Virus record (IMG/VR): IMGVR_UViG_3300037755_000799 | Source: an uncultured virus (IMG/VR IMGVR_UViG_3300037755_000799) | Taxonomy: Duplodnaviria > Heunggongvirae > Uroviricota > Caudoviricetes | Reading direction: 5' to 3' (one strand) | Length of the DNA stretch: 64,000 nt | Shown: positions 18,935 to 46,097 of the stretch, piece by piece | Numbering within the stretch: the stretch's first letter is position 1 | Layout of the letters: the number at the start of each line of letters is the position of its first letter | Position numbers and translations under genes: made by a program | The notes under the pieces: generated by a model | Databases searched by the model: none | Told to the model about the DNA's origin: nothing | The model's input: only the letters and a program-made list of their open reading frames with translations

Positions 18935-18997
18935 CCGTCCGGCCGCCCCGGCCCCCGCTACACGCGGGGGCTCGCCTGTCTCTGCGGAGCCCCCACC

Positions 18998-27629: not shown

Positions 27630-28313
27630 GTGGTCAAACGTACCTGCGACGTGCCTGAATGCAACAGACCACACTCCAGCAAGGGGTACTGCGCGCCGCA
27701 CTATGCCCGCTGGAAGCGGACAGGACGACCGGGCACGGCCCAAGTAGCCGCACCGAGCCGGGGAGGCGCCTGCTCAGTCCAGGGATGCGACCGTCAGCGT
27801 AAAGCTCGCGGGTATTGCCAGCAGCACTACAACCGATGGGCAAGCAGTGGCGACCCCGGCCCTGTCACGATCCGCGCCAAAGGCGACTCCAGGACCCGTG
27901 ATGCGCAGGGGCGGAAGCGGTGCACCAAGTGCGAGGAGTGGCGCTCCGTACGCGACTTCCGGAGCGGGCCCCGGGCGGCGGACAAGCTGAGCTCCCACTG
28001 CTACCGCTGCCACCGCGCCGGGGTGCTGCGCCGCACCTACGGCGTCACAATCGAGTGGTACGAGAAGACTCTGGCAGAACAAGGCGGCCTCTGCGCACTG
28101 TGCTCGAAGGCGAACCGAGACGGTCGCATGCTCGCGGTCGACCACGATCACACCTGCTGCGCTGGCCGTAAATCATGCGGCAACTGCGCGAGAGCGCTCC
28201 TTTGTACCCGCTGCAACACCGGGCTCGGAGCGTTCGGCGATGATACGGCGCTCATGGCTGCGGCCATTGAGTACGTGACCACGCGGAAGGCGCGGCGTGA
28301 CGGCTCCCCCTGA
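27630..28313 (+). CDS. Endonuclease VII-domain homing endonuclease-like protein
   Basis: Two CxxxxC..GYC..HY Zn modules; YGVT, QGGLCALC, AVDHDH, LLCTRCNTGLGAFGDD. Confidence 0.88.
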   Translation: MVKRTCDVPECNRPHSSKGYCAPHYARWKRTGRPGTAQVAAPSRGGACSVQGCDRQRKARGYCQQHYNRWASSGDPGPVTIRAKGDSRTRDAQGRKRCTKCEEWRSVRDFRSGPRAADKLSSHCYRCHRAGVLRRTYGVTIEWYEKTLAEQGGLCALCSKANRDGRMLAVDHDHTCCAGRKSCGNCARALLCTRCNTGLGAFGDDTALMAAAIEYVTTRKARRDGSP

Positions 28314-29634
28314 TCTCATCCACCGGTACGAACCCCGGGGTGCGGCACTGGAGCTGATGCGGTGTCGCAACCCTGAGGTGCTCCTGAGCGGGCCAGCGGG
28401 GACGGGCAAGAGCCGGGCTTGCTTGGAGAAGCTGCATCTGATGTCGCTGGTGAACGCGGGGATGAGGGGGCTCATCGTCCGTAAGACTCGCGAGTCTCTG
28501 GGCTCGACGGCCCTGGTGACGTATCGGGAGCACGTTGCCCAAGAGGCTTTGGCCAGTGGACTGGTGTCTTTTTATGGCGGGTCGGCTCAGGAGCCGCCGC
28601 AGTACCGGTACAGCAACGGCTCAAAGATCATGATCGGGGGGATGGACAAACCTACCAAGATCATGTCATCTGAGTACGATGCCGCCTACGTCCAGGAAGC
28701 CATCGAGCTGACCACCACCGACTGGGAGAACATCACCACGCGCCTCAGGAATGGCGCCGTGAGCTTCCAGCAGCTCCTCGCAGACTGCAACCCGGACATG
28801 CCCAGTCACTGGCTGCACCAGCGCTGCGTACGCGGTACGACCCAGATGCTCGACTGCCGCCACGAAGACAATCCCGTCCTCTACAGCGCCGACGGCACCC
28901 TCACTGAGCGCGGCAAGGACTACATCAGCAAGCTCGACGCGCTCACTGGCGTCCGTTATCAGCGCCTCCGGCTGGGCCGATGGGCGGCAGCGGAAGGTCA
29001 GGTCTATGAGGCGTGGAACCCGGCCGTCCATCTGATCGACCCCATCCGCCTGCCGCAGGAGTGGACCAGATGGATCTCGATCGACTTCGGGTACACGGCG
29101 CCCTTCTGTGCCCAGTGGTGGGCCGAAGACGGGGACGGCAGGCTCTACTTGTACAGGGAGCTGTACGCCACTCGCGGTCTGGTTGAAGACCATGCCCGCC
29201 ACATGCTGGAGCTGATGAAGTACCCGTCGGGGCAGTGGCGGGAGCCGCAGCCGCGCGCGGTGATCTGTGACCACGACGCGGAGGACCGGGCGACGCTGGA
29301 GAGGCACCTCGGGTTGGGCACGGTGGCCGCGAAGAAGTCCGTCAGCGACGGCATCCAGGCGGTGCAGTCGCGCCTGAAAGTCCAACCGGATGGGAAGCCT
29401 CGGCTGTTCATCTTCCGTGATGCCCTAGTGAAGGCTGACCCGGAGCTGGAGGACGCGAAGAAGCCGACGTGCTCCGTCGACGAGATCACAGGCTACGTGT
29501 GGGCCGTAAAGCCTGGTGCGTCGGGCGATCTGAAGGAGGCGCCGGTGAAGGAAAACGATCATGGCATGGACACGATGCGCTACGCCGTCGCAGCCCGCGA
29601 CCTGGTCGGCCGGACCCGGGTGCGCTGGCTGTGA
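28297..29634 (+). CDS. terL: Terminase large subunit
   Basis: SGPAGTGKS, YVQEAIE, DCNP, SIDFGY, DHGMDTMRY. Confidence 0.95.
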   Translation: MTAPPDLIHRYEPRGAALELMRCRNPEVLLSGPAGTGKSRACLEKLHLMSLVNAGMRGLIVRKTRESLGSTALVTYREHVAQEALASGLVSFYGGSAQEPPQYRYSNGSKIMIGGMDKPTKIMSSEYDAAYVQEAIELTTTDWENITTRLRNGAVSFQQLLADCNPDMPSHWLHQRCVRGTTQMLDCRHEDNPVLYSADGTLTERGKDYISKLDALTGVRYQRLRLGRWAAAEGQVYEAWNPAVHLIDPIRLPQEWTRWISIDFGYTAPFCAQWWAEDGDGRLYLYRELYATRGLVEDHARHMLELMKYPSGQWREPQPRAVICDHDAEDRATLERHLGLGTVAAKKSVSDGIQAVQSRLKVQPDGKPRLFIFRDALVKADPELEDAKKPTCSVDEITGYVWAVKPGASGDLKEAPVKENDHGMDTMRYAVAARDLVGRTRVRWL

Positions 29635-29713: not shown

Positions 29714-29938
29714 GTGAAAAAGACCATCGCCCGACTCGCCGCGGTCCGACCACGCCTCACCACGGCCGCCACCGCCGTCGCGGCAGCCCGAGCCGGCCTG
29801 TACACCACTGGCGGTCTCGCCTGCGGCACCGCATCCGCCTGGGTTACTTGGGGTGTCGGCGCCGGCCTCGCCGGAGCATCCGTGTCGCTGCTGCTGATGG
29901 GTGTCCTGTCTGACAATGAGAAGGGGGCGGTCCGGTGA
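29714..29938 (+). CDS. Small membrane protein preceding portal
   Basis: GGAGG RBS; hydrophobic; coupled to portal. Confidence 0.75.
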   Translation: MKKTIARLAAVRPRLTTAATAVAAARAGLYTTGGLACGTASAWVTWGVGAGLAGASVSLLLMGVLSDNEKGAVR

Positions 29939-32073
29939 GGTCTCTACGTGCGTTGAGGAATAAGACGCCGGTGCCGTACGTGTCGTCGCGTGGCGGGCTG
30001 TCGATTCCGTGGCGGGCACCGTCCGGGGCTGAGGCGCAGATGCGGGCGATGGGGACGGTGGGAACCCTGTTCTCCATCGTCAACCGCACCAGCAACGCGA
30101 CGGCGCTCGTCGACTGGAAGCTGCTCCGCAAAGCCCCGTCAGGCAAGCTGGAGGACCGGGTTGAGGTCACCTCCCACGCGATCCTCGACCTGTGGAACAA
30201 GCCGAACCGGTTCTTCACCCGGCAAGAGTTGGTCGAGACGGTGCAGCAGCACATCGACCTCACGGGTGAGGGCTGGCTCGTCATCGGCCGGAATCCGCGC
30301 TCGCCGATGCCGCTGGAGTTGTGGCCGGTGCGCCCGGACCGTATCCAGCCGGTGCCGCACCCGGTGGATTTCATCTCCGGCTACCTGTACACCGGCCCGG
30401 ACGGGCGTGAGATCGCGCTGCGTGTCGAGGACGTCATTCAGATCCGGATGCCCAACCCGCTGGACCCGTACCGGGGGATGGGGCCGGTGCAGTCGATCCT
30501 CACCGAACTCGACGCGAGCAGGTACTCGGCTGAGTGGAACCGCAACTTCTTCATGAACAGTGCGGAGCCCGGCGGGATCATCGAACTCCCCTCCGTCCTC
30601 TCCGACCCCGAATGGGACCAGCTCCAAGCCCGCTGGAACGAACAGCACAAGGGCGTCGCCAACGCTCACCGGGTTGCGTTCATCGAGCACGGGCAGTGGA
30701 AGGACCGCAAGTACACGCAGCGGGACATGCAGTTCGCTGAGCTCCGGTCGGTGTCCCGGGACGTGATCCGCGAATCCTTTGGCGCGCCGGCGTTCGTGCT
30801 GGGTGAGGTCGGTGACGTCAACCGGGCGACGGCTGATGCGTCGAAGGTGCTGTTCGCGGAGCAGTTGACGGTGCCGCGCTTGGAGCGTTTCAAGCAGGCG
30901 TTGAACAACGACCTGTTGCCCCTGTACGGCAAGGATGCGGCACGGCTGCTGGAGTTCGACTACTGCGACCCGGTACCCCCGGATGCTGCCGCGCGCAACG
31001 AGGAGCTGACCGCGAAGTCGGCTGCCTATGCCGAGTTCATCGGGGCCGGGGCGGATCCGCGTCTGGTCGCCGAGTATCTCGACTTGCCCGAGTTTGCTGG
31101 GGACGCGGACCGGGATCTGCTGGTGCGGATTGTGACGGGTGCGCCGTCGACGGCGCCGATGATTCTGCCGCTGCTGGGTTTCGACGTCCCGGAGCCGGCT
31201 GCTCCCGCCCCCGCGGTCGCTGCTGTGCCTGTGCAGCAGCCGGCGGCCCGTCTGGACTTGCATCACCATGTGCCGTTCGCGTTGCCCGCCGGGCGGCCGT
31301 CGTACAACCGGGTGTTGGAGCGCGGCGGGGTGCGTGCGCAGGCTGATGACGATGCGTTGGACGCGGTGCGGGTCCAGTTCGAGGAGGCGCTCGCTGGACT
31401 GTTGGAGGCGTGGGAGCCGATCGCGGAGGCGCAGTACGCGGCGGTGGAGGAGCAGATCGCCGCCGCCGTGGATGCTGGGGATACGGAGGCGTTGGCCACG
31501 CTTGTCGTGGACGCGGATGAGGGTGCGCGGGTGCTGCGGCTGGCGCTCGGGGAGATGGCGGAGACGGCGGCCGGGCAGATGGCGGAGGAGGCTGCCGAGC
31601 AGGGTGTGAAGGTGCGTCCGCCGAGGGTGGACAAGGGGCTGCGGAATGCGTTCGGGTCGGAGTTGATTGAGATTGCTGTGGCGACGGCGGCGTTGTTGGC
31701 GGCGGATGTGGCGGGGTCGGCGGGTCGTGAGGCGCTGCGGCTACTCACTCCTGGTGCGGTGGGGCGTGAGGTCGCCTCGCAGGTGGGCGGGTTCCTGCGC
31801 GGGTTGAAGAACTGGTTCCGGCGGGATCAGTTGGGTGGTGCGTTGCATCGGGCGCAGAACACGGCCCGGGTGGCGACGTTGGCCGCTGCGCCTACCGCCC
31901 GGATTTTTGCTAGCGAGCGGAACGATCGCAACACGTGCGGCCCGTGTAAGGAGATCGACGGGCACGAGTTCGACGACTTGGATGCGGTGCGGGCTGCGTA
32001 TGGTGCGGGCGGCTATCTGCGGTGCGAGGGCGGCGTGCGCTGCCGAGGAACCGTGACGGCCCGCTGGGAGTGA
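29935..32073 (+). CDS. HK97-type portal fused to head-morphogenesis (MuF-like) domain
   Basis: LWNKPN, LTGEGW, LWPVRPDR, YRGMGPV, FFMNSAEPGG; C-terminal D.NTCGPC..IDG...RCRG. Confidence 0.9.
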   Translation: MRSLRALRNKTPVPYVSSRGGLSIPWRAPSGAEAQMRAMGTVGTLFSIVNRTSNATALVDWKLLRKAPSGKLEDRVEVTSHAILDLWNKPNRFFTRQELVETVQQHIDLTGEGWLVIGRNPRSPMPLELWPVRPDRIQPVPHPVDFISGYLYTGPDGREIALRVEDVIQIRMPNPLDPYRGMGPVQSILTELDASRYSAEWNRNFFMNSAEPGGIIELPSVLSDPEWDQLQARWNEQHKGVANAHRVAFIEHGQWKDRKYTQRDMQFAELRSVSRDVIRESFGAPAFVLGEVGDVNRATADASKVLFAEQLTVPRLERFKQALNNDLLPLYGKDAARLLEFDYCDPVPPDAAARNEELTAKSAAYAEFIGAGADPRLVAEYLDLPEFAGDADRDLLVRIVTGAPSTAPMILPLLGFDVPEPAAPAPAVAAVPVQQPAARLDLHHHVPFALPAGRPSYNRVLERGGVRAQADDDALDAVRVQFEEALAGLLEAWEPIAEAQYAAVEEQIAAAVDAGDTEALATLVVDADEGARVLRLALGEMAETAAGQMAEEAAEQGVKVRPPRVDKGLRNAFGSELIEIAVATAALLAADVAGSAGREALRLLTPGAVGREVASQVGGFLRGLKNWFRRDQLGGALHRAQNTARVATLAAAPTARIFASERNDRNTCGPCKEIDGHEFDDLDAVRAAYGAGGYLRCEGGVRCRGTVTARWE

Positions 32074-32105: not shown

Positions 32106-32405
32106 TCACGCGGGGTGCCACCAGAAGCCATCCGGGTCGAAGCGCGTTGGTACCGGGCTCACGGTGAACCGATGCCCGCACGTGCCCAAGTCGATCTCCA
32201 GCACACCGCCCGGACCTTGGTCGTACGTGGACCACGCGACGTGTTTTGCCGGTACGCCGCATTCGGGGCAGCCCGGGTAGTGCACGGACTCGCCGCCGTC
32301 GGCGAGCTGGTCGAGTCTTTCCGCTCGGATGTATTCGCGGCGGTTCTCTGTCGCCTTGTCGAAGGCGATGGCCCGGTCGGGGTCGAGTGGAATGCGGTCG
32401 CTCAC
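32106..32405 (-). CDS. Cys-containing hypothetical protein
   Basis: GAGGTG RBS; CPECG..CGH. Confidence 0.7.
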   Translation of the reverse strand: MSDRIPLDPDRAIAFDKATENRREYIRAERLDQLADGGESVHYPGCPECGVPAKHVAWSTYDQGPGGVLEIDLGTCGHRFTVSPVPTRFDPDGFWWHPA

Positions 32406-32434
32406 GGCTGCACCTCGTCGCGGTCTGGGAGTGA

Positions 32435-32605
32435 CTACCTTCGGACGCGGGGTTCCGGGTTGCAGAGGACGTAGGTGTTCACGTACGCCATGGCCGCCCA
32501 CAAGACGGCGATGGCGGTTGATCCCATCCAGCCCCATTGCGCTCCGTGGTAGGCCATGAGGAAGACAGCGGTCCCTGCGATCAGTGCCGCGATGATGGGC
32601 TTCAC
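32435..32605 (-). CDS. Small two-TM membrane protein
   Basis: Coupled; hydrophobic. Confidence 0.65.
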   Translation of the reverse strand: MKPIIAALIAGTAVFLMAYHGAQWGWMGSTAIAVLWAAMAYVNTYVLCNPEPRVRR

Positions 32606-32940
32606 AGCGTCACCTCTGGGAGTCGCACCAGCATGTACTGGCCGTCCGGCATCTGCCCGTCGCCCACGTACGCGCCGAGGCTCTTGCAGTAGATCAGCGC
32701 CTTCCCAGCAGGTACTTCCTCGGAGGCGCACACCTCGTAGCCGAGCACCCGCCCGCCGATCAGTACGGAGGCGCCGCCGTCGGTGGGGTTGAGCCACAGT
32801 TCGTCATCGGACCGCATGGGTGGCCACTGCTTCCGCGTCCAGATGATGACGTCGTAGATGGCTTGGCCGAGTGGGCCTTCCATGACTTCGGCGGCTCGGT
32901 GCTGGCGGATCTGTTCGGGCGTCATCCACTCGCCGCTCAC
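32602..32940 (-). CDS. Hypothetical protein
   Basis: GAGGAG RBS; GTGA overlap. Confidence 0.7.
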   Translation of the reverse strand: MSGEWMTPEQIRQHRAAEVMEGPLGQAIYDVIIWTRKQWPPMRSDDELWLNPTDGGASVLIGGRVLGYEVCASEEVPAGKALIYCKSLGAYVGDGQMPDGQYMLVRLPEVTL

Positions 32941-33707
32941 GTGGTCTCCTCGGTCAAGCCCATGTCCTGCTTTGCGATGTGCTGCGCCCGCTGCTCCGAG
33001 TACACCTTCCGCACCCGCTGCGCATCCCAGCCCTCGACCGTGAGCGCGGTCCGGGGAGGGCTGCCGACATCGCCGCGCAGCCAGGCGTACTCGACACGGC
33101 CAGGCCGGCCATCGAAGTCCTTCTCGACGCACGACTCATGAGGCTCCAGTGGCGGCACCCAGAAAATCTTGTGCCACGGACGCGTCTTCACCGGCCCATC
33201 GCGAACCTCCAGCGTCAGAACATCGGCCCCGACGGAGTAGGCGTGCGCGTCTTCGGCTCGGGTGAAGGCGTAGCGGGGTTCGTGGTCTGCCTCGGCATCT
33301 TGGTCCGGCAGGGGCACGTAGACCATGCGCGGCTCAGGTTGGCCCAGCGACACCACCCTCGGTGGGATGCCGTCCATGCCCGCGAACTCGTGATGCGACC
33401 ACACCGTGACATGCCGGAACCCCTCCGCCTTCAACCGCTCCTCCAACTCCTCCGGCCGCGCATAGTTCCACGCGAACCAAATGCAGGCGCTTCCTGCGAC
33501 CTTGTGGCCGCCCTGGAGTTGCTGCCAGTCGTCGCGGTTGCAGGAGATGACGGGCATGTGGACTGCCCTGTGCGAGTTGTCCGAGTCGGGGTACAGGACG
33601 TCTCGGATGATGTCGGCGACCTTCGGCGCAATGTCCTCGGCGCTGATCCATCCGGTGGGTCCGTCGCTGTCGCCGATGATGACGAACATGTCGGTCGCGT
33701 TGCTCAC
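32937..33707 (-). CDS. Hypothetical protein (possibly two-domain)
   Basis: GTGA overlap chain. Confidence 0.7.
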   Translation of the reverse strand: MSNATDMFVIIGDSDGPTGWISAEDIAPKVADIIRDVLYPDSDNSHRAVHMPVISCNRDDWQQLQGGHKVAGSACIWFAWNYARPEELEERLKAEGFRHVTVWSHHEFAGMDGIPPRVVSLGQPEPRMVYVPLPDQDAEADHEPRYAFTRAEDAHAYSVGADVLTLEVRDGPVKTRPWHKIFWVPPLEPHESCVEKDFDGRPGRVEYAWLRGDVGSPPRTALTVEGWDAQRVRKVYSEQRAQHIAKQDMGLTEETT

Positions 33708-34147
33708 GGTGTGGGTTCTTCTTCCTCGGGCTCGGCGGGGTCGGTTTCCGACGCATTCGACTTCCCCATGTGCAAGATGCCCCGCGTCCACCGCGCTTGC
33801 TCCGGCGACACATACTCGCCAACCTCGGCGTCCGGGACGTGCGAGTACACGTACGCGCCGTCCACTGCCCGCTTCGGACTGTCGTCACGTTCGCGTTCCA
33901 GCCAGTACAGGGCCGACCGGCCACGGATCGGCTCGGGACGGTCGCGCACTCTCCACTCGGGGTAGCCCCATTCCACGCGGCACAGCCACACGGCCTCGGG
34001 AACGGGCAGGCCGTCGGCGGGTGTCCATGGCGCGGCGATGGCCCATCGCGGCGGCGGCATGATCCCGCGTTCTTCGTCGATCCAGTCGGTTGCTGGGCCG
34101 CCGCTGAGCATGAGTCGGATCTGTTCGTTGTCGGCTGGTGTGCTCAC
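33704..34147 (-). CDS. Hypothetical protein
   Basis: GTGA overlap; LSGGP motif. Confidence 0.7.
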   Translation of the reverse strand: MSTPADNEQIRLMLSGGPATDWIDEERGIMPPPRWAIAAPWTPADGLPVPEAVWLCRVEWGYPEWRVRDRPEPIRGRSALYWLERERDDSPKRAVDGAYVYSHVPDAEVGEYVSPEQARWTRGILHMGKSNASETDPAEPEEEEPTP

Positions 34148-34518
34148 GGCGTGGGCTCCCGGTGCTCGGCGGGGATGGATAGGCAACGCCCCTGCGAGCA
34201 TTCGTACGAGCAGCACATCAGGGCCATGCAGCGGCCGGGACGGCAGTGCCGATCGAGGGGAAGCGGGTTGGTCTCCTTGCCGCTCATGTCCGGCGCGTGG
34301 GTCATGCCGAGCCGGATCACAGCCTCATCAGCATGCGCGTACACAAAGCCGTCGCACTCGACTTCGACACCGTTCCTGTAGATGGCCTTGATGCGGTAGT
34401 CCCGCTCGGTGTTCTCGGGCACGCCGAGTGGGAAGCGGACTAGGTCACCGACCTGGAAGTACTCGGTGAACCCGCGTTGCTGCTGGCGGGTACGGAGCAG
34501 GGATTCAACGTCGCTCAC
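34144..34518 (-). CDS. Hypothetical protein with Cys-rich tail
   Basis: GTGA overlap. Confidence 0.65.
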   Translation of the reverse strand: MSDVESLLRTRQQQRGFTEYFQVGDLVRFPLGVPENTERDYRIKAIYRNGVEVECDGFVYAHADEAVIRLGMTHAPDMSGKETNPLPLDRHCRPGRCMALMCCSYECSQGRCLSIPAEHREPTP

Positions 34519-34832
34519 GGCTGTGGCCTTTCGTCGGCGATCGCCCACGTCGGCCAGGACTCCGGCGGCTCCACAGCGAGCGGCACCGTACGCTCTTCCG
34601 GCGCGGCGCAGTCCTGGCCGTCCACGTGATACCTGGCGCCTTCGAGGGTGCGCAGGTAGGCCCGGTACCGGATCGTCCGCCCGTCGGGGCCGTCCTCAAC
34701 GGTCAGGTCGTGGTTGGTGGACACGTCGTCGGGGTCGATGCCGTTCGCCGCAACCCACGTGCTGATCTCCTCGGCGCGGCCCTGAGCGACGTGCAGGGGC
34801 CAGAGGGTCTTGTTGCTGATCAGGCGCCTCAC
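34515..34832 (-). CDS. Hypothetical protein
   Basis: AAGGAG RBS; WVAANGIDP. Confidence 0.75.
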   Translation of the reverse strand: MRRLISNKTLWPLHVAQGRAEEISTWVAANGIDPDDVSTNHDLTVEDGPDGRTIRYRAYLRTLEGARYHVDGQDCAAPEERTVPLAVEPPESWPTWAIADERPQP

Positions 34833-35452
34833 TGCTGCTCCTTGGTGGCGGGGATGTAGCTGGGGATCTTCTTCAACTCCGGGTCCAGGATCTCCATCGC
34901 CTTCACCTCCGGGCGCCGCTCGACCTCCCGTACACCGAGGGCGAAGGCGTACAGGTTGCCGAACATGGCCTCGGCGAGCCCGTCAGGGAGCAGCGACGGC
35001 CCGGACGGTGCAGGACGCTTAGGCTCGGGCCGGTCCAGTGCGGCGCGCTGCTCGCCGGTGAGCCCGTACCCCCCAGCGAGCGCGAGCAGCGTCTCGCAGT
35101 CGTTGGTGTGCTCGACGAGCGCCCCATACTCCGAGTCGTCGCCGCAGCCGAGGCAGGCGTAGGGCTCCCAGGAGACGCCGGCGGGTGCGTGGTGTTCGAG
35201 GATCTTCCGGTCGGCGGCACAACGACGCAGCACGGCGGCCGGATCGGCATGGGCGATGATCAAGCTCATGTCGGCCTGCACCTGCACGTTGCTGCCGCTT
35301 CGTACGTAGTCCCACATTCGGGCGACGGTGCCAGCGTCAGCCATGACGGTGTCGTCGTGTGTGTCGGCGGTCCATGGTCCGGGCGTGGCGGCGCGGGCGA
35401 GCGTTTCCGTCACGTCGATCTGCTGGGTGATCCAGCCATGCAAGTCAGGCAT
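34829..35452 (-). CDS. DUF6221-like protein
   Basis: ARAATPGPW, DPAAVLRRCAADRKILEHH, C..C...CETLLALA..Y. Confidence 0.75.
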   Translation of the reverse strand: MPDLHGWITQQIDVTETLARAATPGPWTADTHDDTVMADAGTVARMWDYVRSGSNVQVQADMSLIIAHADPAAVLRRCAADRKILEHHAPAGVSWEPYACLGCGDDSEYGALVEHTNDCETLLALAGGYGLTGEQRAALDRPEPKRPAPSGPSLLPDGLAEAMFGNLYAFALGVREVERRPEVKAMEILDPELKKIPSYIPATKEQQ

Positions 35453-35895
35453 CACCAATCCTCCTCGGTCCGCGTGCTCGTCTCCCGGACAGCCCGGAAC
35501 ACCGTCCCCGGATGCTCGGCCCGCAGCCGCTCCAACTCCCGGCGTGCGTCCTCCCGGTACGGGCTGCGGTCGACGCACACGGCAAGCCGGCGGCCGAGCT
35601 TCGTCTCGATGACCCACTCGTTGTACTCACCCCGGGTGCCGGTGTTCAGGTCGAGGGCGGTCGGCCGTTGTCTACTCGCGGGCGTTTCCTGTGGCGGGAT
35701 GAAGTATTGGGTGAAGTCGTCGATGCGTGTGGCCAACCCTTTGTTGCGGTGGCGGTCGCGGGTGGTGTCTGCGGGCGCTGTCCAGTAGACGTTGTCTCCC
35801 TCCACGCTGGTGACGATGGCTGTGTCTGCTGGGTCGTCTACGGGACGCCAGATCTCACCGGCCTTGGGGTGCCGTGTGCTCTGTTCGGCAGTCAC
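35452..35895 (-). CDS. Hypothetical protein
   Basis: GAGGAG RBS; coupled. Confidence 0.7.
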   Translation of the reverse strand: MTAEQSTRHPKAGEIWRPVDDPADTAIVTSVEGDNVYWTAPADTTRDRHRNKGLATRIDDFTQYFIPPQETPASRQRPTALDLNTGTRGEYNEWVIETKLGRRLAVCVDRSPYREDARRELERLRAEHPGTVFRAVRETSTRTEEDW

Positions 35896-36083
35896 GGAAT
35901 CTCCTCGGGTTGTGGGAGTGGGCGGGCGTACAGGCGGACCAACTCCGAGTACAGGTCCTCCGGCCGCATCTCGGGCGGGTCGGGCCACGGGACGGCGGGC
36001 AGCAGTTGCAGCGGATGGCCGGGCCCGGCGTGCCAGTAGTAGTCGCGGCCGAACAGGCGCACCGGACGCAGACGGTCACCCAC
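35892..36083 (-). CDS. Small hypothetical protein
   Basis: Fills the coupled chain. Confidence 0.55.
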   Translation of the reverse strand: MGDRLRPVRLFGRDYYWHAGPGHPLQLLPAVPWPDPPEMRPEDLYSELVRLYARPLPQPEEIP

Positions 36084-36321
36084 GCCGGGTCCTGAACGCG
36101 AGGAAGTACGCCGGAACCCCAACCGGCCAGACGAACGCAGTCACAAGCCCCATCAGGATGCCGCTGACGACGTGTTCGGTTTCAATCCGAAGCGGCTCGC
36201 CAGGATCCGGGAACGAGACCATGCGCCTGCTCCAGTCGGCCTCGTCGATGGTGATGTCGATGGCGAGGATGACTGCGGAGATCGCGGCGCCGATGACGTA
36301 GACGGTCTCGAAGACGTTCAC
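36076..36321 (-). CDS. Two-TM membrane protein
   Basis: GAGGAG RBS; hydrophobic, AFVWP. Confidence 0.7.
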   Translation of the reverse strand: MNVFETVYVIGAAISAVILAIDITIDEADWSRRMVSFPDPGEPLRIETEHVVSGILMGLVTAFVWPVGVPAYFLAFRTRRG

Positions 36322-36713
36322 GGGGTCTCCTCGGGGGTGGTGTGAGGCAGTGGGTCCACCAGGCCGTTGCGCGAGCTTCCTGTGAAGTCGATTCGGCAAC
36401 CGGGCCACGGCCGCTTGAAGTGCTCCATACGCCCGGTGCGCGGGTTGGTGACGCACGCCCACTCGTTGACGTCGTGCTCCGTGCAGAGCGGCGTCACGAG
36501 GTGCGCGTTCGTGTTGCTGCCGTACAGGGCCAGCCAGCGCGTCTTGATCGCCTCGTACTCGGCCTCCGTGAGCGGCTCAGGGATAGTGAGCACTCGGGGC
36601 GTGGGGTGCTGAAACTTCGACCGCTGGAGGTGGTAGCGGCGGGGAGCCGCCCACGTGCAGAGGGCGATGACGGCCACCGCGACGACGATGACAACGATGT
36701 GGGCAACGCTCAC
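36318..36713 (-). CDS. Membrane-anchored protein with portal-like internal segment
   Basis: N-terminal TM helix; PEPLTEAEYEAIKTRW...NAH resembles this phage's portal. Confidence 0.7.
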   Translation of the reverse strand: MSVAHIVVIVVAVAVIALCTWAAPRRYHLQRSKFQHPTPRVLTIPEPLTEAEYEAIKTRWLALYGSNTNAHLVTPLCTEHDVNEWACVTNPRTGRMEHFKRPWPGCRIDFTGSSRNGLVDPLPHTTPEETP

Positions 36714-37123
36714 GGGGCGGGCTCCTTGATCGTGAAGTCGAGTTCGTTCCGCAACCGCCGTAGCCGCTCCCACGGCAGACACTGCTGCTGATGCCCCTTC
36801 TCGATCGCCGTCCGCATGTCCGGGTCCGGTGACTGGTAGGCGGCGGCGAGGATCCACAGCCAGTCCCGGTCGGTCCAGTCGGTGCTGCCGTGACAGCAGG
36901 TGATCCCGTTCGCGCGTGGGGGTGTTGAGCGTCCTCGGGTGGCGGGGCAGCCGAGTTCGATGAGGGGGTACGAGTAGCGGCCGATCATCAGGTCGCAGTC
37001 GGCGTGGTCGGTGACGCCGTCAGCGATGGCGGCTTCGGCCTGCTCGGGCCGGTTGAAGCCGGGGTCGTGGACGATGATGGCGGGGTCGTGGGAGAGGCAG
37101 AGGACGCTGTAGTTGCTGCTCAC
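36710..37123 (-). CDS. Cys/His hypothetical protein
   Basis: LCLSHDP, H..C.LMIGRYSYPL. Confidence 0.75.
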   Translation of the reverse strand: MSSNYSVLCLSHDPAIIVHDPGFNRPEQAEAAIADGVTDHADCDLMIGRYSYPLIELGCPATRGRSTPPRANGITCCHGSTDWTDRDWLWILAAAYQSPDPDMRTAIEKGHQQQCLPWERLRRLRNELDFTIKEPAP

Positions 37124-37425
37124 GACTGCTCCTTGTGCGGGGTGGCGCCGTCGGCGGTGTCGTTCCACACGGTGCGCCCGTTCGGCCCGATGACGCTGGC
37201 GTGGTAGTCGCCGTACTGGCCGTGTCCTATCCGGTGCCCGGCGCGGAGGATGCACGTGTACGAGCCGTACTCGTTGTCGAGGCGGGCTGTGCAGGGCGGC
37301 AGGTCGGCGTGGACGGTAGCGACATGCTGGTCTGTGCGGCTGGGCCACTGGAAGGTGTCGCAGTGGGGGCAGGCTTCGACGGTGAAGTCGTGGGGGCCGG
37401 GGGGTTCGGTGGGACAAGTGCTCAC
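37120..37425 (-). CDS. Cys/His-rich hypothetical protein
   Basis: CPHC, CILRAGH. Confidence 0.7.
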   Translation of the reverse strand: MSTCPTEPPGPHDFTVEACPHCDTFQWPSRTDQHVATVHADLPPCTARLDNEYGSYTCILRAGHRIGHGQYGDYHASVIGPNGRTVWNDTADGATPHKEQS

Positions 37426-37435
37426 GGGTTTCTCC

Positions 37436-37639
37436 TCAGTCGCCGTTGCGGTCGTCGATGACGTAGGCCTCGGCGTCGTTGTCCCAGGACACTGTCAGTA
37501 CGTTGTCGTCCAGGCCCAGTTCCAGCCGGACGTGTGGGGTGAGGCTGACGCCGTGGGTTTTGGTGATCTCGGAGAGTGCGTCGAGGACGGTGCCGATCGT
37601 GCGGAGCTGCTCGGCGGTCAGGTTCAACGTGGCACTCAC
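37436..37639 (-). CDS. Small hypothetical protein
   Basis: AAGGAG RBS. Confidence 0.75.
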   Translation of the reverse strand: MSATLNLTAEQLRTIGTVLDALSEITKTHGVSLTPHVRLELGLDDNVLTVSWDNDAEAYVIDDRNGD

Positions 37640-38160
37640 GGCTGCTCCTTGGGCTGCTCGATCCGGCTACGCGCGGCGGCGTAGAGACGGGCCGCATGCT
37701 GGCCGATGTGCGCGTACTTCTCCTCGGTCGTATGGCCGTCCCACTGCGCCCGGACGTCGTCAGCAGGGACGTGCTCGACGTGGGCGTACAGCTCGGCGTC
37801 TTGGGGCGCGATGTGCCATGACGCCTGCTTGCCGCCGATTCGGAGGTAGAGGACCTGCCAGCCGTCCTCGTCGACGTCGGGTGCGGGTGCGATAACCGAC
37901 GGGTGAAGCGCGGCGAGTAGCGCGAGGAGTTGGGCGCGTTCGCGGTAGGCGCCGTTGAGTTGCTCTTCGAGGTCGGGCGCCGTGGGGCTGTTGTGTGCTG
38001 TGGCGATGTAGCGGAGCACGGTGGTGATCGCGGATCGTGTCGACGTGTCCACGGTGCTGCCGATGTGGGCGCGGCCTTCGGTGGCGTCGAGGTGTCGGGC
38101 GGCGAGGATGACCATCCCGCTGGGCGGGTCGATGGTGATGCGTTTGCGGGTGTCGGTCAC
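37636..38160 (-). CDS. WDGH-motif domain protein
   Basis: AYRERAQLLALL...QASWHI...WDGHTTEEKY. Confidence 0.7.
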   Translation of the reverse strand: MTDTRKRITIDPPSGMVILAARHLDATEGRAHIGSTVDTSTRSAITTVLRYIATAHNSPTAPDLEEQLNGAYRERAQLLALLAALHPSVIAPAPDVDEDGWQVLYLRIGGKQASWHIAPQDAELYAHVEHVPADDVRAQWDGHTTEEKYAHIGQHAARLYAAARSRIEQPKEQP

Positions 38161-38438
38161 GCCGTCTCCTCTTCCGGGTCGAGCGCTCCACGGACCTTGT
38201 TCAGCAAGTCCGCATACGCCACCGCATGATCAGTCTTCGGGTCCGCGTCGCCGATTTCCCACCGGTACACGGTCGTTGTCGTCACGCCCAGGACCTGCGC
38301 GAACTCCCGCAACGTGATGCGGGCTTCACGACGGATACGGGCCCGCTCCTCTGGTGGCGGGAGCTTCGCGGCACGGATGCGCCGTGCCAACTGCTCTGCG
38401 GGTGTGGCGCCGTCATCATGCGCCGTGTATGGCTCCAT
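38157..38438 (-). CDS. XRE-family HTH regulator heading the antisense operon
   Basis: IRREARITLREFAQVLGVTTTTVYRWEIG. Confidence 0.88.
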   Translation of the reverse strand: MEPYTAHDDGATPAEQLARRIRAAKLPPPEERARIRREARITLREFAQVLGVTTTTVYRWEIGDADPKTDHAVAYADLLNKVRGALDPEEETA

Positions 38439-38645: not shown

Positions 38646-40073
38646 ATGAGCCACACGCGGCGATCGTGGAATACCGCCACCCCCGAAACCATCGCCGAAC
38701 GCGGACGAGCCATGCGACCCACACTCCCGACACCCGACGGCGAACAGACCTGGTACCGCATCCGCAACGCCCTCGACGAAGGCGGCACCCCATACGCATC
38801 CATCTCTGTCTATGGGGACATCGGTTCATGGGGAATTACGGCCGCGTCCTTCATGGAGGAGCTGAAGGCCGTCGACGCGCCAGAGATCAGATTGTCCATT
38901 TCGTCCCCTGGGGGAGACCTCTTCGACGGGCTGGCGATACACAATGCCCTTCGCTCCCACCGGGCGAAGGTCGTGGTGCAAGTCGACGCGCTCGCCGCGT
39001 CGATCGCCTCTGTGATCGCAATGGCCGGGGACCGGATCATCGCTGCTCCGCACAGTCAATTCATGATCCACAACGCGGCCGGAGTAGCCGCAGGCGAAGC
39101 CACCGAGCTCCGCGAGTACGCCGACTTCCTCGACAAGCAGTCCGAGAACATCGCCGGGGTCTATGCAGAACGCGCAGGCGGCACCGTCAAGCACTGGCTC
39201 CGCCTCATGGCGGCAGAGACCTGGTTCTTCGCCGACGAAGCGGTAGAGGCCGGGCTCGCCGATGAGGTCGGCAAGCCGATGCGGCGCGACGACGAAGAGA
39301 TGATGCCCGACGACCGGGCGATGGCCGCCGCGTGGGACCTCAGCGTCTACAACTACGCGCACACCAGCCGCGAGACCGCACCCGCGCCCGAGACCGCACC
39401 CGCGACCGTCGAACCCCCCGCCGCACCCGCGCCCACTGCGGCTCCCGTCTTCGACCCGTCCGTGTTCCGGGCCGCCACCACCGCAGCGCTCGACCCGATG
39501 CCCGGCTACCAGCCCGAGCACCTCCGCTCGCTGATGGCCGGAGTCGCCGGTGACGCCCCCGCCGCACCCGCACCCGTACGCCAAGCCGCCCCGTACGTGC
39601 CCCCGCCCACGGACGTCGTGCCCGAACCCGACGAGCAGACCGTGGCCGCCGGCTACTTCCGCTCCCTCATGGCGGGTGTGGCGGGTGACGCACCGGCCGT
39701 ACCCGCCCCGCGGCAGGATCCGGTCCCGTATGTGCCGCCGCCTGTAGACGTCGTGCCTGAGGCGGATCCGCAGACGGTGGCGGTCGGCTACTTCCGGTCC
39801 CTGTTCGCTGGGGTCGCCAACGATGCTCCGGCAGCCCCGCAGCCGGAGCGCCCGGCACCGGCCGTGCACGCCCCGGCTGCGGCCGTCGTGCCCGAACCGC
39901 CGCCGCCTGCCGGGCAGGTGGTGGCCGACTACCTGCGCGCCGTCATGACTGGTGTCGCCAACGACGCCCCCGCACCACCCCAGGCCGCCGTGCCCGAGCC
40001 GACCACGCCGGAGCCGGTCCAAGCGATCGACCAATCAGCAGTACGACGTGCCCTTTGGGAGGCAGAGCTATGA
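38646..40073 (+). CDS. ClpP-like head maturation protease with repetitive C-terminal extension
   Basis: SSPGGDLFDG, LAASIASVIAMAGD, FMIHN, ETWFFADEAVEAGLAD. Confidence 0.92.
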   Translation: MSHTRRSWNTATPETIAERGRAMRPTLPTPDGEQTWYRIRNALDEGGTPYASISVYGDIGSWGITAASFMEELKAVDAPEIRLSISSPGGDLFDGLAIHNALRSHRAKVVVQVDALAASIASVIAMAGDRIIAAPHSQFMIHNAAGVAAGEATELREYADFLDKQSENIAGVYAERAGGTVKHWLRLMAAETWFFADEAVEAGLADEVGKPMRRDDEEMMPDDRAMAAAWDLSVYNYAHTSRETAPAPETAPATVEPPAAPAPTAAPVFDPSVFRAATTAALDPMPGYQPEHLRSLMAGVAGDAPAAPAPVRQAAPYVPPPTDVVPEPDEQTVAAGYFRSLMAGVAGDAPAVPAPRQDPVPYVPPPVDVVPEADPQTVAVGYFRSLFAGVANDAPAAPQPERPAPAVHAPAAAVVPEPPPPAGQVVADYLRAVMTGVANDAPAPPQAAVPEPTTPEPVQAIDQSAVRRALWEAEL

Positions 40074-42334: not shown

Positions 42335-42814
42335 ATGAGCGTCATTCTGAAGCCGGACCAGTTCAACCCGGTCTCCCGCGAGCTGACCACCGGTATCCGC
42401 GTGGACCGGGCCACGGACACGCTGCCGCAGACCGCCGACGAAGCAATCTTCACGATCACCACGGGCCGGATTCTGCTCGTGGGCCTGGTCGGGGAGGTCA
42501 CCACCGTCATCGGCTCTGGCACCACCCCGAACCTGAAGGTCAAGTTCAACCCCACCGCGACGGGCGCCGACCAGGACCTGTGCGCCAACCTCGACATCGG
42601 CGACGCCGCCGTGGGGACGCTGCTCACCATCACTGGCACCGTCGCCAACGCCCTGGTCCAGGATCTCCTCATCGGTAACGCGATGCTCGCCAATCCGCTG
42701 GTGCTGTCCGAGGGCGACATCGAGATCGAGACGGATGAGTCCGTCACCGGCTCTATCTCGTGGTCGCTGCTGTATGTGCCGTGGGACGCCAGCGCGGAAG
42801 TTGCGGCGGCCTGA
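42335..42814 (+). CDS. Putative virion structural protein
   Basis: Beta-rich; structural operon. Confidence 0.7.
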   Translation: MSVILKPDQFNPVSRELTTGIRVDRATDTLPQTADEAIFTITTGRILLVGLVGEVTTVIGSGTTPNLKVKFNPTATGADQDLCANLDIGDAAVGTLLTITGTVANALVQDLLIGNAMLANPLVLSEGDIEIETDESVTGSISWSLLYVPWDASAEVAAA

Positions 42815-43599
42815 TGACCGTCTACCGGCGTGGGACTGAGGGCCGTCTGAACGACATCATGACGGTCCTCGGTACCACCAAGTCGTCTCTGTGGCCGTTC
42901 TGGGAATCCACCGGGGTCCTGGTCAACGGTATCGGCATCGGGGATCTGATCCCGTCGGAGACGGCCGCCGCTGCGGAGGCACTGGAGGACGATTTTTCGC
43001 CTGTGCAACTGCCGTCCGGCCTGCACTCGTACCACTTCCACCCGACCGGTGATCACCATCTGGCCGGGACCGACCTGAACCGGTACTCCTTCGGTGACGG
43101 CTCGGTGGACTCGGCGTTCTCGGTGGGGGCGTGGATCCGGCCGAACGCCATCGCCACCAACGTGATCATGGGGAAACACGACTCCGCGGGAAACCTGGAG
43201 GAGTGGCGGTTCTTCATCGATGCGAGCGGCAAGCTGTCGCTGGAACTGCACGACGCGAGTGCGAGCGCGACAGAGATCGCCGCGTCGACGGCGGCACTCG
43301 TCACGAGCGAGTTCGTGTTCGTGGCCGCGACCTACGACGGCACACAGACCGCGCCGGTCGTGAACCTGTACGTCAACGGCACGCTCGCCAACGACGGCAC
43401 CACGACGGAGTCCGGCTCGTACGTGGCGATGGAGAACACTTCAGCGCCTTTGACGGTCGGCTGCTCCGGTGTCACCGCTACACCGGTCGCGGAGTTCCAC
43501 GGCCGCATCGCGCTCCCCTTCATCACCGGCAAAGAACTGTCGGCCGCCGAGGTCACCACCCTGTACGGGTACACGGCTCCGCTGGTGGGGGTGGCCTGA
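42814..43599 (+). CDS. LamG/concanavalin-like virion protein
   Basis: FSVGAWIRP, FVAATYDG, LYVNGTL, FHGRI. Confidence 0.85.
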   Translation: MTVYRRGTEGRLNDIMTVLGTTKSSLWPFWESTGVLVNGIGIGDLIPSETAAAAEALEDDFSPVQLPSGLHSYHFHPTGDHHLAGTDLNRYSFGDGSVDSAFSVGAWIRPNAIATNVIMGKHDSAGNLEEWRFFIDASGKLSLELHDASASATEIAASTAALVTSEFVFVAATYDGTQTAPVVNLYVNGTLANDGTTTESGSYVAMENTSAPLTVGCSGVTATPVAEFHGRIALPFITGKELSAAEVTTLYGYTAPLVGVA

Positions 43600-45041: not shown

Positions 45042-46097
45042 ATGACCGTCACGCCGTACTACGCCACCCGCGAGGAGATCAAAGCCGAGCTCGACGTGAA
45101 GGAGACGGCCCGCTCCAACAGCAGGGTCGACCGCGCACTCGCCGACGCAACCGACACCATCCACGGCCTATGCCACCGCACGTTCTACCCCGAGCAGGAC
45201 ACCCGGTCCTTCGACTGGCCCAACATGCAGTACGCCCGCTCATGGCGACTGTGGCTCGACGCGAACGAGGTCATCTCCGTCACCACCCTCACGAGCGGCG
45301 GCACCACCATCGTCGCGGCGGACTACTTCCTCGAACCCAACCAGTACGGGCCGCCCTACAACCGCATCGAAATCGACCTCGACTCCAACGCGGCGTTCGG
45401 CGGCGGCGACACCCACCAACGCGACATCACCATCACCGGCCTGTTCGGCTACCGCAACGACGAAACCACCCTCGGCTCTACGGATGAGGCTCTCGACGAC
45501 AGCGAGACCGGCGTCGACGTCGACGCCGCCACCTCGGCCGCGGTCGGTATCGGCTCCCTGCTGCGCATCGACTCCGAGCGGGTCATCGTCACTGGCCGAT
45601 CCCAGCTCGACACCGGGCAGAACCTCGGCGGCAACCTCACCGCCGCCAACAACGACGTCAGCGTGTCCGTGTCGGACGGCACCGGCTACGCCGTCGACGA
45701 GGTCGTCCTCATCGGCTCCGAGAAGATGCGCGTCGACGAAATCAGCGGAAACACCCTGACCGTGACCCGCGCCTGGGATGGCACCACGCTCGCCGCCCAC
45801 ACCTCCGGCGCCGACATCTACGCCCCCCGCACCCTCACCGTCACCCGCGGCGCGCTCGGCACCACAGCAGCCACCCACACCACCTCGGCGACCGTCCAGC
45901 GATGGGACCCGCCCGGCCCCGTCCGTCAACTCTGTGTGGCCGAAGCGCTCGTCGACCTGTTGCAGGGCCGGTCCGGGTATGCGCGGACCGCCGGCTCCGG
46001 TGAGGGCGAGCGTGAGGTGTCCGGGCGTGGGCTGAAGGACTTGCGGGACCGCGTGTACGTCTCACACGGTCGCAAGGGCCGGACGAGGAGCGTGTAG
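45042..46097 (+). CDS. Head-tail connector/adaptor with inserted beta domains
   Basis: YATREEIKAEL...IHGLCHRTFYP; ITITGLFGY; PGPVRQLC. Confidence 0.75.
   Translation: MTVTPYYATREEIKAELDVKETARSNSRVDRALADATDTIHGLCHRTFYPEQDTRSFDWPNMQYARSWRLWLDANEVISVTTLTSGGTTIVAADYFLEPNQYGPPYNRIEIDLDSNAAFGGGDTHQRDITITGLFGYRNDETTLGSTDEALDDSETGVDVDAATSAAVGIGSLLRIDSERVIVTGRSQLDTGQNLGGNLTAANNDVSVSVSDGTGYAVDEVVLIGSEKMRVDEISGNTLTVTRAWDGTTLAAHTSGADIYAPRTLTVTRGALGTTAATHTTSATVQRWDPPGPVRQLCVAEALVDLLQGRSGYARTAGSGEGEREVSGRGLKDLRDRVYVSHGRKGRTRSV

What the first reader, a model, noticed from the sequence alone, without database searches (positions are those of the whole stretch)
36318..36713. Membrane-anchored mini-protein carrying a portal-like segment (possible portal mimic)
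Seen: TPRVLTIPEPLTEAEYEAIKTRWLALYGSNTNAHLVTPL aligns without gaps to this phage's portal segment PGGIIELPSVLSDPEWDQLQARWNEQHKGVANAHRVAFI (~30568-30684). Shared residues are P, L, E, RW, NAH and V, with a matching hydrophobic pattern. Known: this region of HK97-type portals is approximately the clip domain, which contacts terminase and adaptor. Inference: a captured fragment behind a TM helix might act as a decoy for a competitor's packaging machinery, for host portal-sensing defences, or in superinfection exclusion.
Basis: partly seen in the sequence, partly recalled or inferred. Interest (0 to 1): 0.7.

Follow-up and report, generated by a model that had tools for sequence, protein, structure and literature searches.

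The report
Membrane mini-protein carrying a portal clip copy
A small membrane-anchored accessory protein of a Streptomyces phage carries a 36-residue stretch that truly resembles the docking ("clip") part of phage portal proteins, so it may act as a natural mimic of the site where the DNA-packaging motor and the tail attach, though nothing it binds has been shown.

Summary
Window 36318-36713 (-) is a real gene for a 131-aa protein: an N-terminal membrane helix, a 36-aa portal-like module (residues 41-76) and a Cys/His mini-domain.

P0001 alone matches the portal weakly (24.6 bits). Relatives hit the same portal register better, up to 30.8 bits and 12 of 27 identical. Profile against profile gives E 1.4e-5. 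The module profile finds the portal segment as the best six-frame hit in 5 of 5 Streptomyces genomes, and finds 17 of 17 portals and no other protein among 419 called proteins. A 29-aa module piece matched 4 of 50,697 phage records, all 4 under "portal protein".

The portal segment lies between the two predicted stem helices, so it is the clip by inference.

The gene sits in a variable reverse-strand island between the portal and protease genes. The module recurs there in four architectures, two without a membrane anchor.

Function is untested. My best guess (about 0.4) is a clip mimic that competes for a clip partner, large terminase or adaptor tail. A synthetic T4 clip peptide does this.

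Earlier notes of this scan record free-standing clip mini-proteins in giant phages.

The parts
36318..36713 (-). Gene for the 131-aa mini-protein (P0001)
   Evidence: GTG start with a Shine-Dalgarno site and GTGA overlap with the upstream gene. Codon-position GC 0.63/0.50/0.89. Seven homologues at 56-88% identity.
36722..36727 (-). Shine-Dalgarno AAGGAG, 8 bases before the GTG start
   Evidence: Read from the sequence.
36642..36707 (-). N-terminal membrane helix (about residues 3-24). Predicted N-out, C-in.
   Evidence: Hydrophobic run followed by R25, R26, R31 and K33. Helix 3-31 in the model, pLDDT about 81 over residues 1-20. Topology follows from the positive-inside rule and is an inference.
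36486..36593 (-). Portal-like module (residues 41-76): short strand, helix 50-64, loop, short strand
   Evidence: hhalign E 1.4e-5 against portals, with permutation control. BLASTP of relatives. Genome and phage searches.
36384..36485 (-). C-terminal Cys/His mini-domain (about residues 77-110; C77, H80, C87 and H98 conserved)
   Evidence: Also found alone in P0010 and P0011 and inside the 408-aa P0012. Predicted hairpin 85-100. Metal binding is an inference.
29935..32073 (+). Portal gene (HK97 type) with a C-terminal extension of about 320 aa
   Evidence: Pfam PF04860 at 3.2e-51, residues 45-356. Closest solved structure is the RcGTA portal 6TBA, E 5e-24.
30577..30684 (+). Portal segment that the module resembles (residues 215-250): predicted strand, helix, loop, strand between the two stem helices, i.e. 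the clip
   Evidence: Alignments. Secondary structure of the portal model. Canonical stem-clip-stem topology (PMC4493910 passages). The clip assignment is an inference.
32106..38312 (-). Variable reverse-strand accessory island between the portal and prohead protease genes, holding the mini-gene
   Evidence: Gene calls. No Pfam, PHROG, PADLOC or NCBIfam function apart from an HTH and DUF6221. The island is present or absent among relatives.
38157..38312 (-). HTH_3 regulator gene at the head of the island
   Evidence: Pfam PF01381 at 3.3e-7. PHROG transcriptional regulator and repressor families.
36076..36321 (-). Downstream overlapping gene for an 81-aa protein with two hydrophobic segments. 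Present only in the window and L001.
28297..29634 (+). Large terminase, candidate partner of a clip mimic
   Evidence: Pfam Terminase_3 at 1.8e-9. Partner role is an inference.
45042..46097 (+). Candidate head-tail adaptor, another possible partner
   Evidence: phrog_442 head-tail adaptor at 3.7e-9, residues 5-139. Partner role is an inference.

Best explanation
Shown:
- The gene encodes a 131-aa protein with one N-terminal membrane helix.
- The part after the helix is a mosaic of two shuffled modules.
- The first module is about 36 residues long and resembles the most conserved motif of HK97-type portal proteins.
- The second module is a small Cys/His domain that also occurs alone or inside other proteins.
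- The gene lies in a hypervariable, regulator-led, reverse-strand accessory island inserted between the portal and protease genes of a Streptomyces phage.
- In related islands the portal-like module recurs in at least four architectures.

Inferred:
- The portal segment is the clip, the exposed docking site for large terminase and later for the adaptor tail.
- The soluble part of the mini-protein faces the cytoplasm.
- The module was captured from a portal of this clade.
- It works as a clip mimic. It binds something that normally docks on the clip, most likely the large terminase, otherwise the adaptor tail or a neighbouring portal subunit. In this version it holds that partner at the membrane.
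- By doing so it interferes with or tunes DNA packaging or head-tail joining, probably in competition between related phages.
For: Specific similarity:
-.
- The module profile A3 has its best six-frame hit inside the portal gene, at residue offset 176, in 5 of 5 whole Streptomyces genomes (E 7e-5 to 4.9e-4; next best hit E 0.158, sequences checked).
- Among 419 called proteins it hits 17 of 17 portals at 16.7-25.6 bits. The best other protein scores 4.1 bits.
- tblastn of a 29-aa module piece against 50,697 phage records matched 4 records, all 4 under 'portal protein' CDSs, in two unrelated phage groups.

Clip position:
- The portal model gives strand 180-183, helix 189-202 and strand 213-216, between helices 159-170 and 227-247.
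- PMC4493910 (passages) describes the clip as three strands and one helix connecting the two stem helices.

Precedent for the mechanism:
- The same passages state that a 24-residue T4 clip peptide binds terminase gp17 and inhibits packaging.
- The clip binds large terminase and then adaptors (PMC10359639 passages).
- Adaptor C-terminal tails bind clip helix alpha8 in RcGTA (PMC7296036) and clip clefts in the Oshimavirus phage of PMC12407722.
- Small prophage proteins that block packaging are known, such as TerI (abstract and passages).

The module behaves as a unit:
- TM-module-Cys/His domain, TM-module only, short soluble protein with the module, and an N-terminal domain with the module.

Accessory context:
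- The island is absent from 7 of 11 genome loci examined. The mini-gene is found only in the window and L001-L004.
Against: - No binding or phenotype has been shown.
- Only about 36 residues align, and P0001 alone is at chance level in an all-against-all of the window.
- No member reaches Pfam's portal cut-off.
- phmmer of P0001 over 1.84 billion representative proteins found no portal at E <= 0.001.
- The first half of the motif is a common helix-start pattern. Two aldo-keto-reductase-like ORFs matched it in metagenome loci L029 and L030. It also resembles a second, Ala/Glu-rich stretch in the portal's C-terminal extension.
- The module lacks the rest of the clip, and its fold is not predicted with confidence (pLDDT 54.6).
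- dN/dS in the module is about 0.5-0.9 between the more diverged copies, on small counts. This fits weak constraint as well as an arms race.
- The clip assignment rests on a poor portal model (mean pLDDT 64; the segment region about 45-69).
- A mimic of its own phage's clip would also harm that phage unless it is timed or selective.
Confidence: 0.4

Rival explanations
1. Portal-derived remnant with an unrelated job. The module is a captured piece of portal that now serves only as a linker or scaffold. The function lies in the membrane anchor, the Cys/His domain or both, for example a membrane-level superinfection-exclusion or signalling protein that has nothing to do with clip partners.
For: The Cys/His domain is well conserved and occurs on its own. 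dN/dS in the module is high. The island is mosaic with frequent domain shuffling: P0010 joins the Cys/His domain to the tail of another island protein. Prophage membrane proteins that exclude phages are common (recalled: HK97 gp15, T4 Imm).
Against: The module persists in versions that lack the Cys/His domain (L004/P0009, P0008, L005) and in versions that lack the anchor (L005, L028). It is therefore the constant element. The residues invariant in the family fall on positions where the portals carry the same or a like residue: an aromatic pair seven residues apart and an Arg-Trp pair.
Confidence: 0.25
2. Assembly helper for its own phage. It would be a membrane-tethered factor that uses the clip-like module to pair with portal subunits and nucleate or hold the portal ring at the membrane, as T4 does with gp40 and YidC.
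For: T4 portal assembly starts on the inner membrane with the chaperone gp40 (PMC4493910 figure legend). Clip strands form the only main-chain contacts between portal subunits (same paper), so a clip piece could pair with a portal. In L005 the module ORF lies just after the portal stop on the same strand.
Against: The gene is accessory. It is absent from most relatives with the same portal type, lies on the opposite strand to the head genes, and occurs without an anchor in L005 and L028.
Confidence: 0.1
3. Decoy for host immunity. The module would bait or blind a host sensor that recognises portal proteins (Avs4-like).
For: Defence systems that sense portal and terminase proteins exist (statements in 10.1101/2023.04.06.535777 and 10.1101/2025.06.06.658234). 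The module copies the most conserved portal motif, seen from Yersinia to Streptomyces phages.
Against: No sensor gene is linked to it. No island protein matches PADLOC, apart from weak matches of the regulator's HTH. Whether 36 residues are enough for such a sensor is unknown, and a membrane tether is not expected for a decoy of a soluble sensor.
Confidence: 0.1
4. No real relationship. The resemblance is a short structural motif (a helix start with an amphipathic helix) that arose independently.
For: The match is short. P0001 alone is at chance level in the window-wide comparison. The N-terminal half of the motif also matches unrelated proteins.
Against: The same ungapped register holds for every family member and includes the loop after the helix. 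Portals are the only hits in whole genomes, in 419 called proteins and in 50,697 phage records. The more diverged members are more portal-like: P0007 has 12 of 27 identical.
Confidence: 0.1

Closest known systems
Clip region of HK97-type portal proteins (Pfam PF04860; closest solved: RcGTA portal, PDB 6TBA)
   Same: About 36 residues align without gaps to the conserved strand-helix-loop-strand motif. The aligned stretch includes an aromatic pair seven residues apart, an Arg-Trp pair and an Asn-Ala-His loop.
   Different: There is no wing, stem or crown, and the protein has 131 residues instead of about 400-700. It does not reach the family threshold. It carries a membrane helix and a Cys/His domain that portals lack.
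Synthetic T4 gp20 clip peptide (residues 288-311) that binds terminase gp17 and inhibits DNA packaging (stated in PMC4493910, passages read)
   Same: It is a short piece of the portal clip acting away from the portal ring, and it shows that such a piece can bind large terminase and block packaging.
   Different: It is a laboratory peptide from a T4-type portal (a different Pfam family), not a natural gene. No binding has been tested for the protein here.
TerI of Listeria prophage phi10403S, and satellite proteins Ppi and Gpi, which block packaging by binding terminase (bioRxiv 10.1101/2025.02.27.640495; abstract and passages)
   Same: They are small accessory proteins of a prophage or satellite. 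TerI is encoded on the strand opposite to the lytic genes. They act on the packaging machinery of competing phages.
   Different: TerI binds the small terminase and is not described there as resembling a portal. I made no sequence comparison. Function here is only inferred.
Morons and variable accessory slots of temperate phages. Earlier notes of this scan, e1-2918532 and e1-3459961, describe the same portal-protease island in sister phages.
   Same: A reverse-strand, regulator-led, mosaic block of small genes at a fixed point of the head-gene module.
   Different: Those notes do not, in the lines shown to me, mention the portal-like module.
Free-standing portal clip mini-proteins noted earlier by this scan in giant and T4-like phages (e1-5648996, e1-6045828, e1-5865388, e1-6035110; AI notes, not checked here)
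   Same: Small separate genes that copy the clip of the phage's own type of portal.
   Different: Those are soluble copies in large lytic phages, mostly of T4-type portals. This one is of HK97 type, lies in a variable island of a phage whose relatives are prophages, is fused to a membrane helix and a Cys/His domain, and is shuffled among architectures.

Membership tests
Phage_portal (Pfam PF04860) | Whole-protein score above the gathering cut-off (39.1 bits) | tested here: not met
   P0001 gives no hit at E <= 1. One of 8 family members (P0004) scores 13.7 bits, E 0.037.
Phage_portal (Pfam PF04860) | Wing, stem and crown regions that form a dodecameric ring subunit | tested here: not met
   Only residues 41-76 align. 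The protein has 131 residues. The rest is a membrane helix and a Cys/His domain.
Phage_portal (Pfam PF04860) | Conserved clip motif at profile positions about 163-205 | tested here: met
   Same register in hhalign, Pfam, BLASTP, whole genomes and phage records, including Yersinia phage YeP2 and Streptomyces phage Dagobah.
Packaging-interference accessory proteins (TerI, Ppi, Gpi type) | Small accessory protein of a phage, prophage or satellite, dispensable for the virion | tested here: met
   131 aa in a variable island that is absent from 7 of 11 genome loci with related portals. The mini-gene occurs only in the window and L001-L004.
Packaging-interference accessory proteins (TerI, Ppi, Gpi type) | Binds a terminase subunit and lowers DNA packaging | not testable with these tools
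   Needs binding and packaging assays.
Packaging-interference accessory proteins (TerI, Ppi, Gpi type) | Sequence similarity to TerI, Ppi or Gpi | not tested
   I held no sequences of these proteins. PHROGs and Pfam gave no family for P0001.
Membrane superinfection-exclusion proteins of prophages | Membrane anchor | tested here: met
   Hydrophobic residues about 5-23 and a model helix 3-31. This is a prediction only.
Membrane superinfection-exclusion proteins of prophages | Expressed from the prophage and blocks entry of incoming phage DNA | not testable with these tools
   Needs expression data and phage challenge.
Known anti-phage defence systems (PADLOC-DB 2.0) | Match to a defence-system protein model | tested here: not met
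   None of 16 island proteins matched a defence model at E <= 0.01, except weak matches of the regulator's HTH.

The most novel reading that the evidence does not exclude
Phages of very different kinds keep genes for 'clip microproteins'. These are short captured copies of the portal's docking surface that titrate the packaging motor or the adaptor tail. Here the copy has become a shuffled cassette in a variable accessory island of a Streptomyces phage whose relatives are prophages. It is tethered to the membrane in some versions and soluble in others. It would serve as a weapon or valve in competition between related phages, acting at the packaging or head-tail joining step.
Probability: 0.3. 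Interest if true: 0.8.

Novelty: new variant of a known kind. Interest (0 to 1): 0.6.

Why it matters
If the module does bind a clip partner, it would be a natural counterpart of the T4 clip peptide that inhibits packaging. It would point to a simple, evolvable way for phages to interfere with each other's assembly: copy a few dozen residues of a conserved docking surface.

It would also give a handle on which residues of HK97-type clips matter for docking. The module keeps the family's most conserved positions.

My literature searches found no natural portal-fragment mimic described. These searches cover open-access papers and preprints only.

Tried and rejected
- Complex prediction of the portal (residues 1-400 of the 677-aa form, alignment A2) with the mini-protein (35-131, alignment A1) gave no verdict: score 0.01 against a mark of 0.32. 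It says nothing either way.
- The structure model of the mini-protein is too uncertain for a fold search (mean pLDDT 54.6). The ESM Atlas gave no usable lead.
- The portal model is poor in the core. Its VIA-align look at PDB was dominated by the helical C-terminal extension, with the HK97 portal only at Z 4.8. The clip could therefore not be mapped by superposition.
- The domain limits of the RcGTA portal are only in a figure. The supplement held as text did not give them, and a second supplement file had no readable text.
- megablast of 34000-38000 and tblastn of P0001 against the 50,697 phage records found nothing.
- PDB sequence search with the family profile gave 0 hits at E <= 10.
- The genome-contig scan with the family gave no relative; 67 pattern matches were all rejected by tblastn.
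- The last homologue search, with the L005 ORF, found only the ORF itself.
- A table scoring each module against its own and other portals, meant as a test of co-variation, was not run.
- I rejected a lipoprotein reading (no proper lipobox before C19) and a cleaved signal peptide (no basic N-region), both from the sequence alone. I rejected a lysis-cassette role because the amidase gene is 22 kb away.

Full report
THE GENE

Window 36318-36713 on the minus strand encodes a 131-aa protein, P0001. The start is a GTG at 36713 with AAGGAG eight bases upstream, and it overlaps the stop of the upstream gene as GTGA. GC at codon positions 1/2/3 is 0.63/0.50/0.89. The longer ORF that reaches 36857 loses this pattern in its extra part, 0.90/0.65/0.44.

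Seven homologues of 81-149 aa were found among 5.8 billion clustered proteins, all unnamed and all from metagenomes. phmmer over 1.84 billion representative proteins added only three more. Each of these matches the C-terminal 45-55 residues alone.

ANATOMY

Residues about 3-24 are hydrophobic. Four residues without charge come before them, and R25, R26, R31 and K33 follow. By the positive-inside rule the rest of the protein should face the cytoplasm. This is an inference.

The AlphaFold model is poor (mean pLDDT 54.6). It gives helix 3-31, helix 50-64 and a hairpin at 85-100.

The C-terminal part keeps C77, H80, C87 and H98 across the family and in P0010-P0012, while C106 varies. A small metal-binding domain is my guess. 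It occurs alone in P0010 (88 aa) and P0011 (58 aa), and inside the 408-aa P0012 next to C2H2-like fingers.

IS THE PORTAL RESEMBLANCE REAL?

The portal is 29935-32073 (+), with Pfam PF04860 at 3.2e-51.
- 9 of 39 residues are identical.
- The best local segment scores 55, against 29.9 +/- 3.9 for shuffles.
- 0 of 2000 shuffles reach that score.

By composition-adjusted BLASTP the pair is weak: 24.6 bits, E 0.002 for one comparison. In an all-against-all of my 87 called proteins it has E 0.041 and sits among unrelated pairs of 23-25 bits. Taken alone it would not stand.

A second match is at least as good: 26.6 bits to an Ala/Glu-rich helix in the portal's C-terminal extension. It shows that the first half of the motif is easy to match.

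Four independent lines lift the clip match above chance.

1. Other family members hit the same register better:
- P0007: 30.8 bits, E 3e-6, 12 of 27 identical.
- P0006: 29.3 bits.
- P0009: 25.4 bits.
- The L028 protein: 25-27 bits to all 17 portals, ranked ahead of every other protein.

2. Profile comparisons agree:
- hhalign of the 8-member family against 35 portals gives probability 80% and E 1.4e-5 over columns 41-76.
- In my own run the observed score was 43.2, against 15.1 +/- 2.9 (maximum 24.8) for column-permuted versions; 0 of 200 reached it.
- Pfam's own portal model, built from diverse portals, is hit by 1 of 8 members, P0004, at E 0.037. The hit covers profile positions 163-205, the register of the window's own portal.

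3. Unbiased searches with the 39-position module profile A3 find portals and nothing else:
- In 5 of 5 whole Streptomyces genomes of 9.3-9.7 Mb, the best six-frame hit is inside the portal gene at residue offset 176 (E 7e-5 to 4.9e-4). The next best hit has E 0.158.
- These genomes were chosen because they hold a related portal, and their portal segments are alike. The result therefore counts as one observation that repeats well.
- Among 419 proteins called in the window and 16 loci, the profile finds the 6 module proteins and then 17 of 17 portals (16.7-25.6 bits). The best other protein scores 4.1 bits.

4. tblastn of the 29-aa module of P0007 against 50,697 phage records gave 4 records at E <= 10. 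Each has E 3, so none is significant alone. All 4 lie under CDSs annotated 'portal protein'. They are three near-identical Yersinia phages (12 of 24 identical) and Streptomyces phage Dagobah.

The module therefore copies the family-wide conserved motif of HK97-type portals, not a quirk of this phage's portal.

WHERE THE SEGMENT SITS IN THE PORTAL

The closest solved portal is that of the Rhodobacter gene transfer agent (6TBA, E 5e-24), and the segment aligns within it.

In the numbering of the 677-aa form, my portal model has strand 180-183, helix 189-202 and strand 213-216. These lie between helices 159-170 and 227-247. A loop and a long helix, 265-296, follow. The model is poor in this region.

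The T4 portal paper (PMC4493910, passages) describes two stem helices connected by a clip of three strands and one helix. A roseophage paper gives a clip of 53 residues between two stem helices (PMC10276861, passages). The order and the size fit. This is an inference. Superposition failed, and the RcGTA domain limits are only in a figure.

WHAT THE CLIP DOES (FROM PAPERS, PASSAGES READ)

- It is exposed outside the capsid. It binds large terminase during packaging and later the neck or adaptor (PMC4493910; PMC10359639).
- Adaptor C-terminal tails bind clip helix alpha8 in RcGTA (PMC7296036) and the clefts between clip domains in the Oshimavirus phage of PMC12407722.
- Clip strands pair between neighbouring subunits.
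- A 24-residue T4 clip peptide binds terminase gp17 and inhibits packaging.

CONTEXT

The window is from a Streptomyces-type phage whose relatives are prophages.
- In order it holds large terminase (28297-29634), the portal, about 15 small genes on the opposite strand (32106-38312), a ClpP-like prohead protease (38712-40070) and the major capsid protein.
- The reverse-strand block starts with an HTH regulator at 38157-38312.
- In many relatives the portal and protease are one fused gene or are adjacent.
- Of the 11 genome loci examined, 7 have no island (L007, L011-L014, L016, L017). Four have one or the start of one (L006, L008, L009, L010). None of those four holds the mini-gene.
- All five viral loci have an island, and four of them (L001-L004) hold the mini-gene.
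- No island protein has a known function apart from the HTH and a DUF6221 domain, and none matches PADLOC.
- Two earlier notes of this scan describe the same island in sister phages.

THE MODULE MOVES

| Architecture | Where found |
|---|---|
| Membrane helix, module, Cys/His domain | window, L001-L003, P0005, P0006 |
| Membrane helix and module only | L004/P0009, P0008 |
| 68-aa soluble protein ending in the module | L005; gene starts just after the portal stop on the same strand; called as a gene by its source; a singleton with a weak coding score |
| 85-aa soluble N-terminal domain followed by the module | L028, in the same kind of island; cut off by the contig end |

Within the gene, the window and L001 differ at 13 bases in the first 37 codons, at 2 bases in the module codons 38-76, and at none in codons 77-125. 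That points to recombination inside the gene.

The module, not the anchor, is the constant element.

SELECTION

dN/dS in the module is about 0.5-0.9 between the more diverged copies. In the anchor and linker it is mostly 0.15-0.25 between those same copies, though two pairs are higher. Counts are small. The invariant core stays fixed: an aromatic residue, Glu-Ala, then Arg-Trp. This fits either weak constraint or rapid adaptive change, and I cannot tell which.

READING

I put about 0.85-0.9 on the module being specifically related to the portal clip. The most likely origin is capture from a portal of this clade, because the diverged members resemble Streptomyces-phage portals closely.

The function is open. 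The most economical mechanism is mimicry of the clip's docking surface. The module would bind large terminase, an adaptor tail or a neighbouring portal subunit. In this version it would hold that partner at the membrane, which would disturb or tune packaging or head-tail joining. The accessory, variable, regulator-led setting suggests competition between related phages. I give this about 0.4. The rivals are set out separately.

The complex prediction with the portal gave no verdict and is not used.

NOVELTY

My searches of the open literature found no natural portal-fragment mimic. Earlier AI notes of this scan report free-standing clip mini-proteins in giant and T4-like phages. I did not check those. 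If they hold, this is a further, HK97-type and membrane-tethered variant of the same idea, found in a phage whose relatives are prophages.

Noticed in passing
window 29935-32073, portal residues about 479-541: The Ala/Glu-rich helix in the portal's C-terminal extension also resembles the first half of the module (26.6 bits; profile positions 4-19 in 5 of the 17 portals). It may be compositional, or a repeat of the same helix-start motif.
   Followed up: partly
window 31000-32073 and relatives P0035, P0038 and others: The portal has a C-terminal extension of about 320 aa, confidently helical in the model, with a PHROG match at residues 639-709 to a family labelled head maturation protease. In many relatives the portal is fused to a ClpP-like protease, giving proteins of 1100-1700 aa.
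   Followed up: partly
window 34144-34518 (-) and P0010: The last 39 residues of P0010, which carries the Cys/His domain, are 65% identical to the C-terminus of another island protein. Domain shuffling among island genes appears to be common.
   Followed up: no
window 37120-37425 (-) and P0012: This island protein has a Cys-x2-Cys...His...His finger-like motif. P0012 combines fingers of that kind (zf-Di19 at 1.3e-4) with the Cys/His domain of the mini-protein. This hints that neighbouring island genes work together.
   Followed up: no
window 18053-20758 (+): A DUF2637 protein and an FtsK/SpoIIIE-family ATPase lie side by side. I recall this pairing from actinomycete conjugative elements. It is unusual in a phage.
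   Followed up: no
window 898-2148, 2148-2588, 3035-3718, 4139-6031, 9701-11248 (+): This stretch holds a C5 cytosine methylase, a WhiB-like regulator, a vWA-TerF-like protein, an HNH-helicase fusion and an N6/N4 methylase.
   Followed up: no
window 46962-48350 and 53467-57363 (+): Two tail-region proteins share a 223-residue stretch at 38.6% identity, E 5e-25.
   Followed up: no
window 42814-44255 (+): A Laminin_G_3 protein and a protein with a K1-lyase C-terminal domain sit among the head and neck genes.
   Followed up: no
L003 473-922 (P0004): This copy of the mini-gene has a partial internal duplication at the start of the Cys/His domain, giving 149 aa.
   Followed up: no
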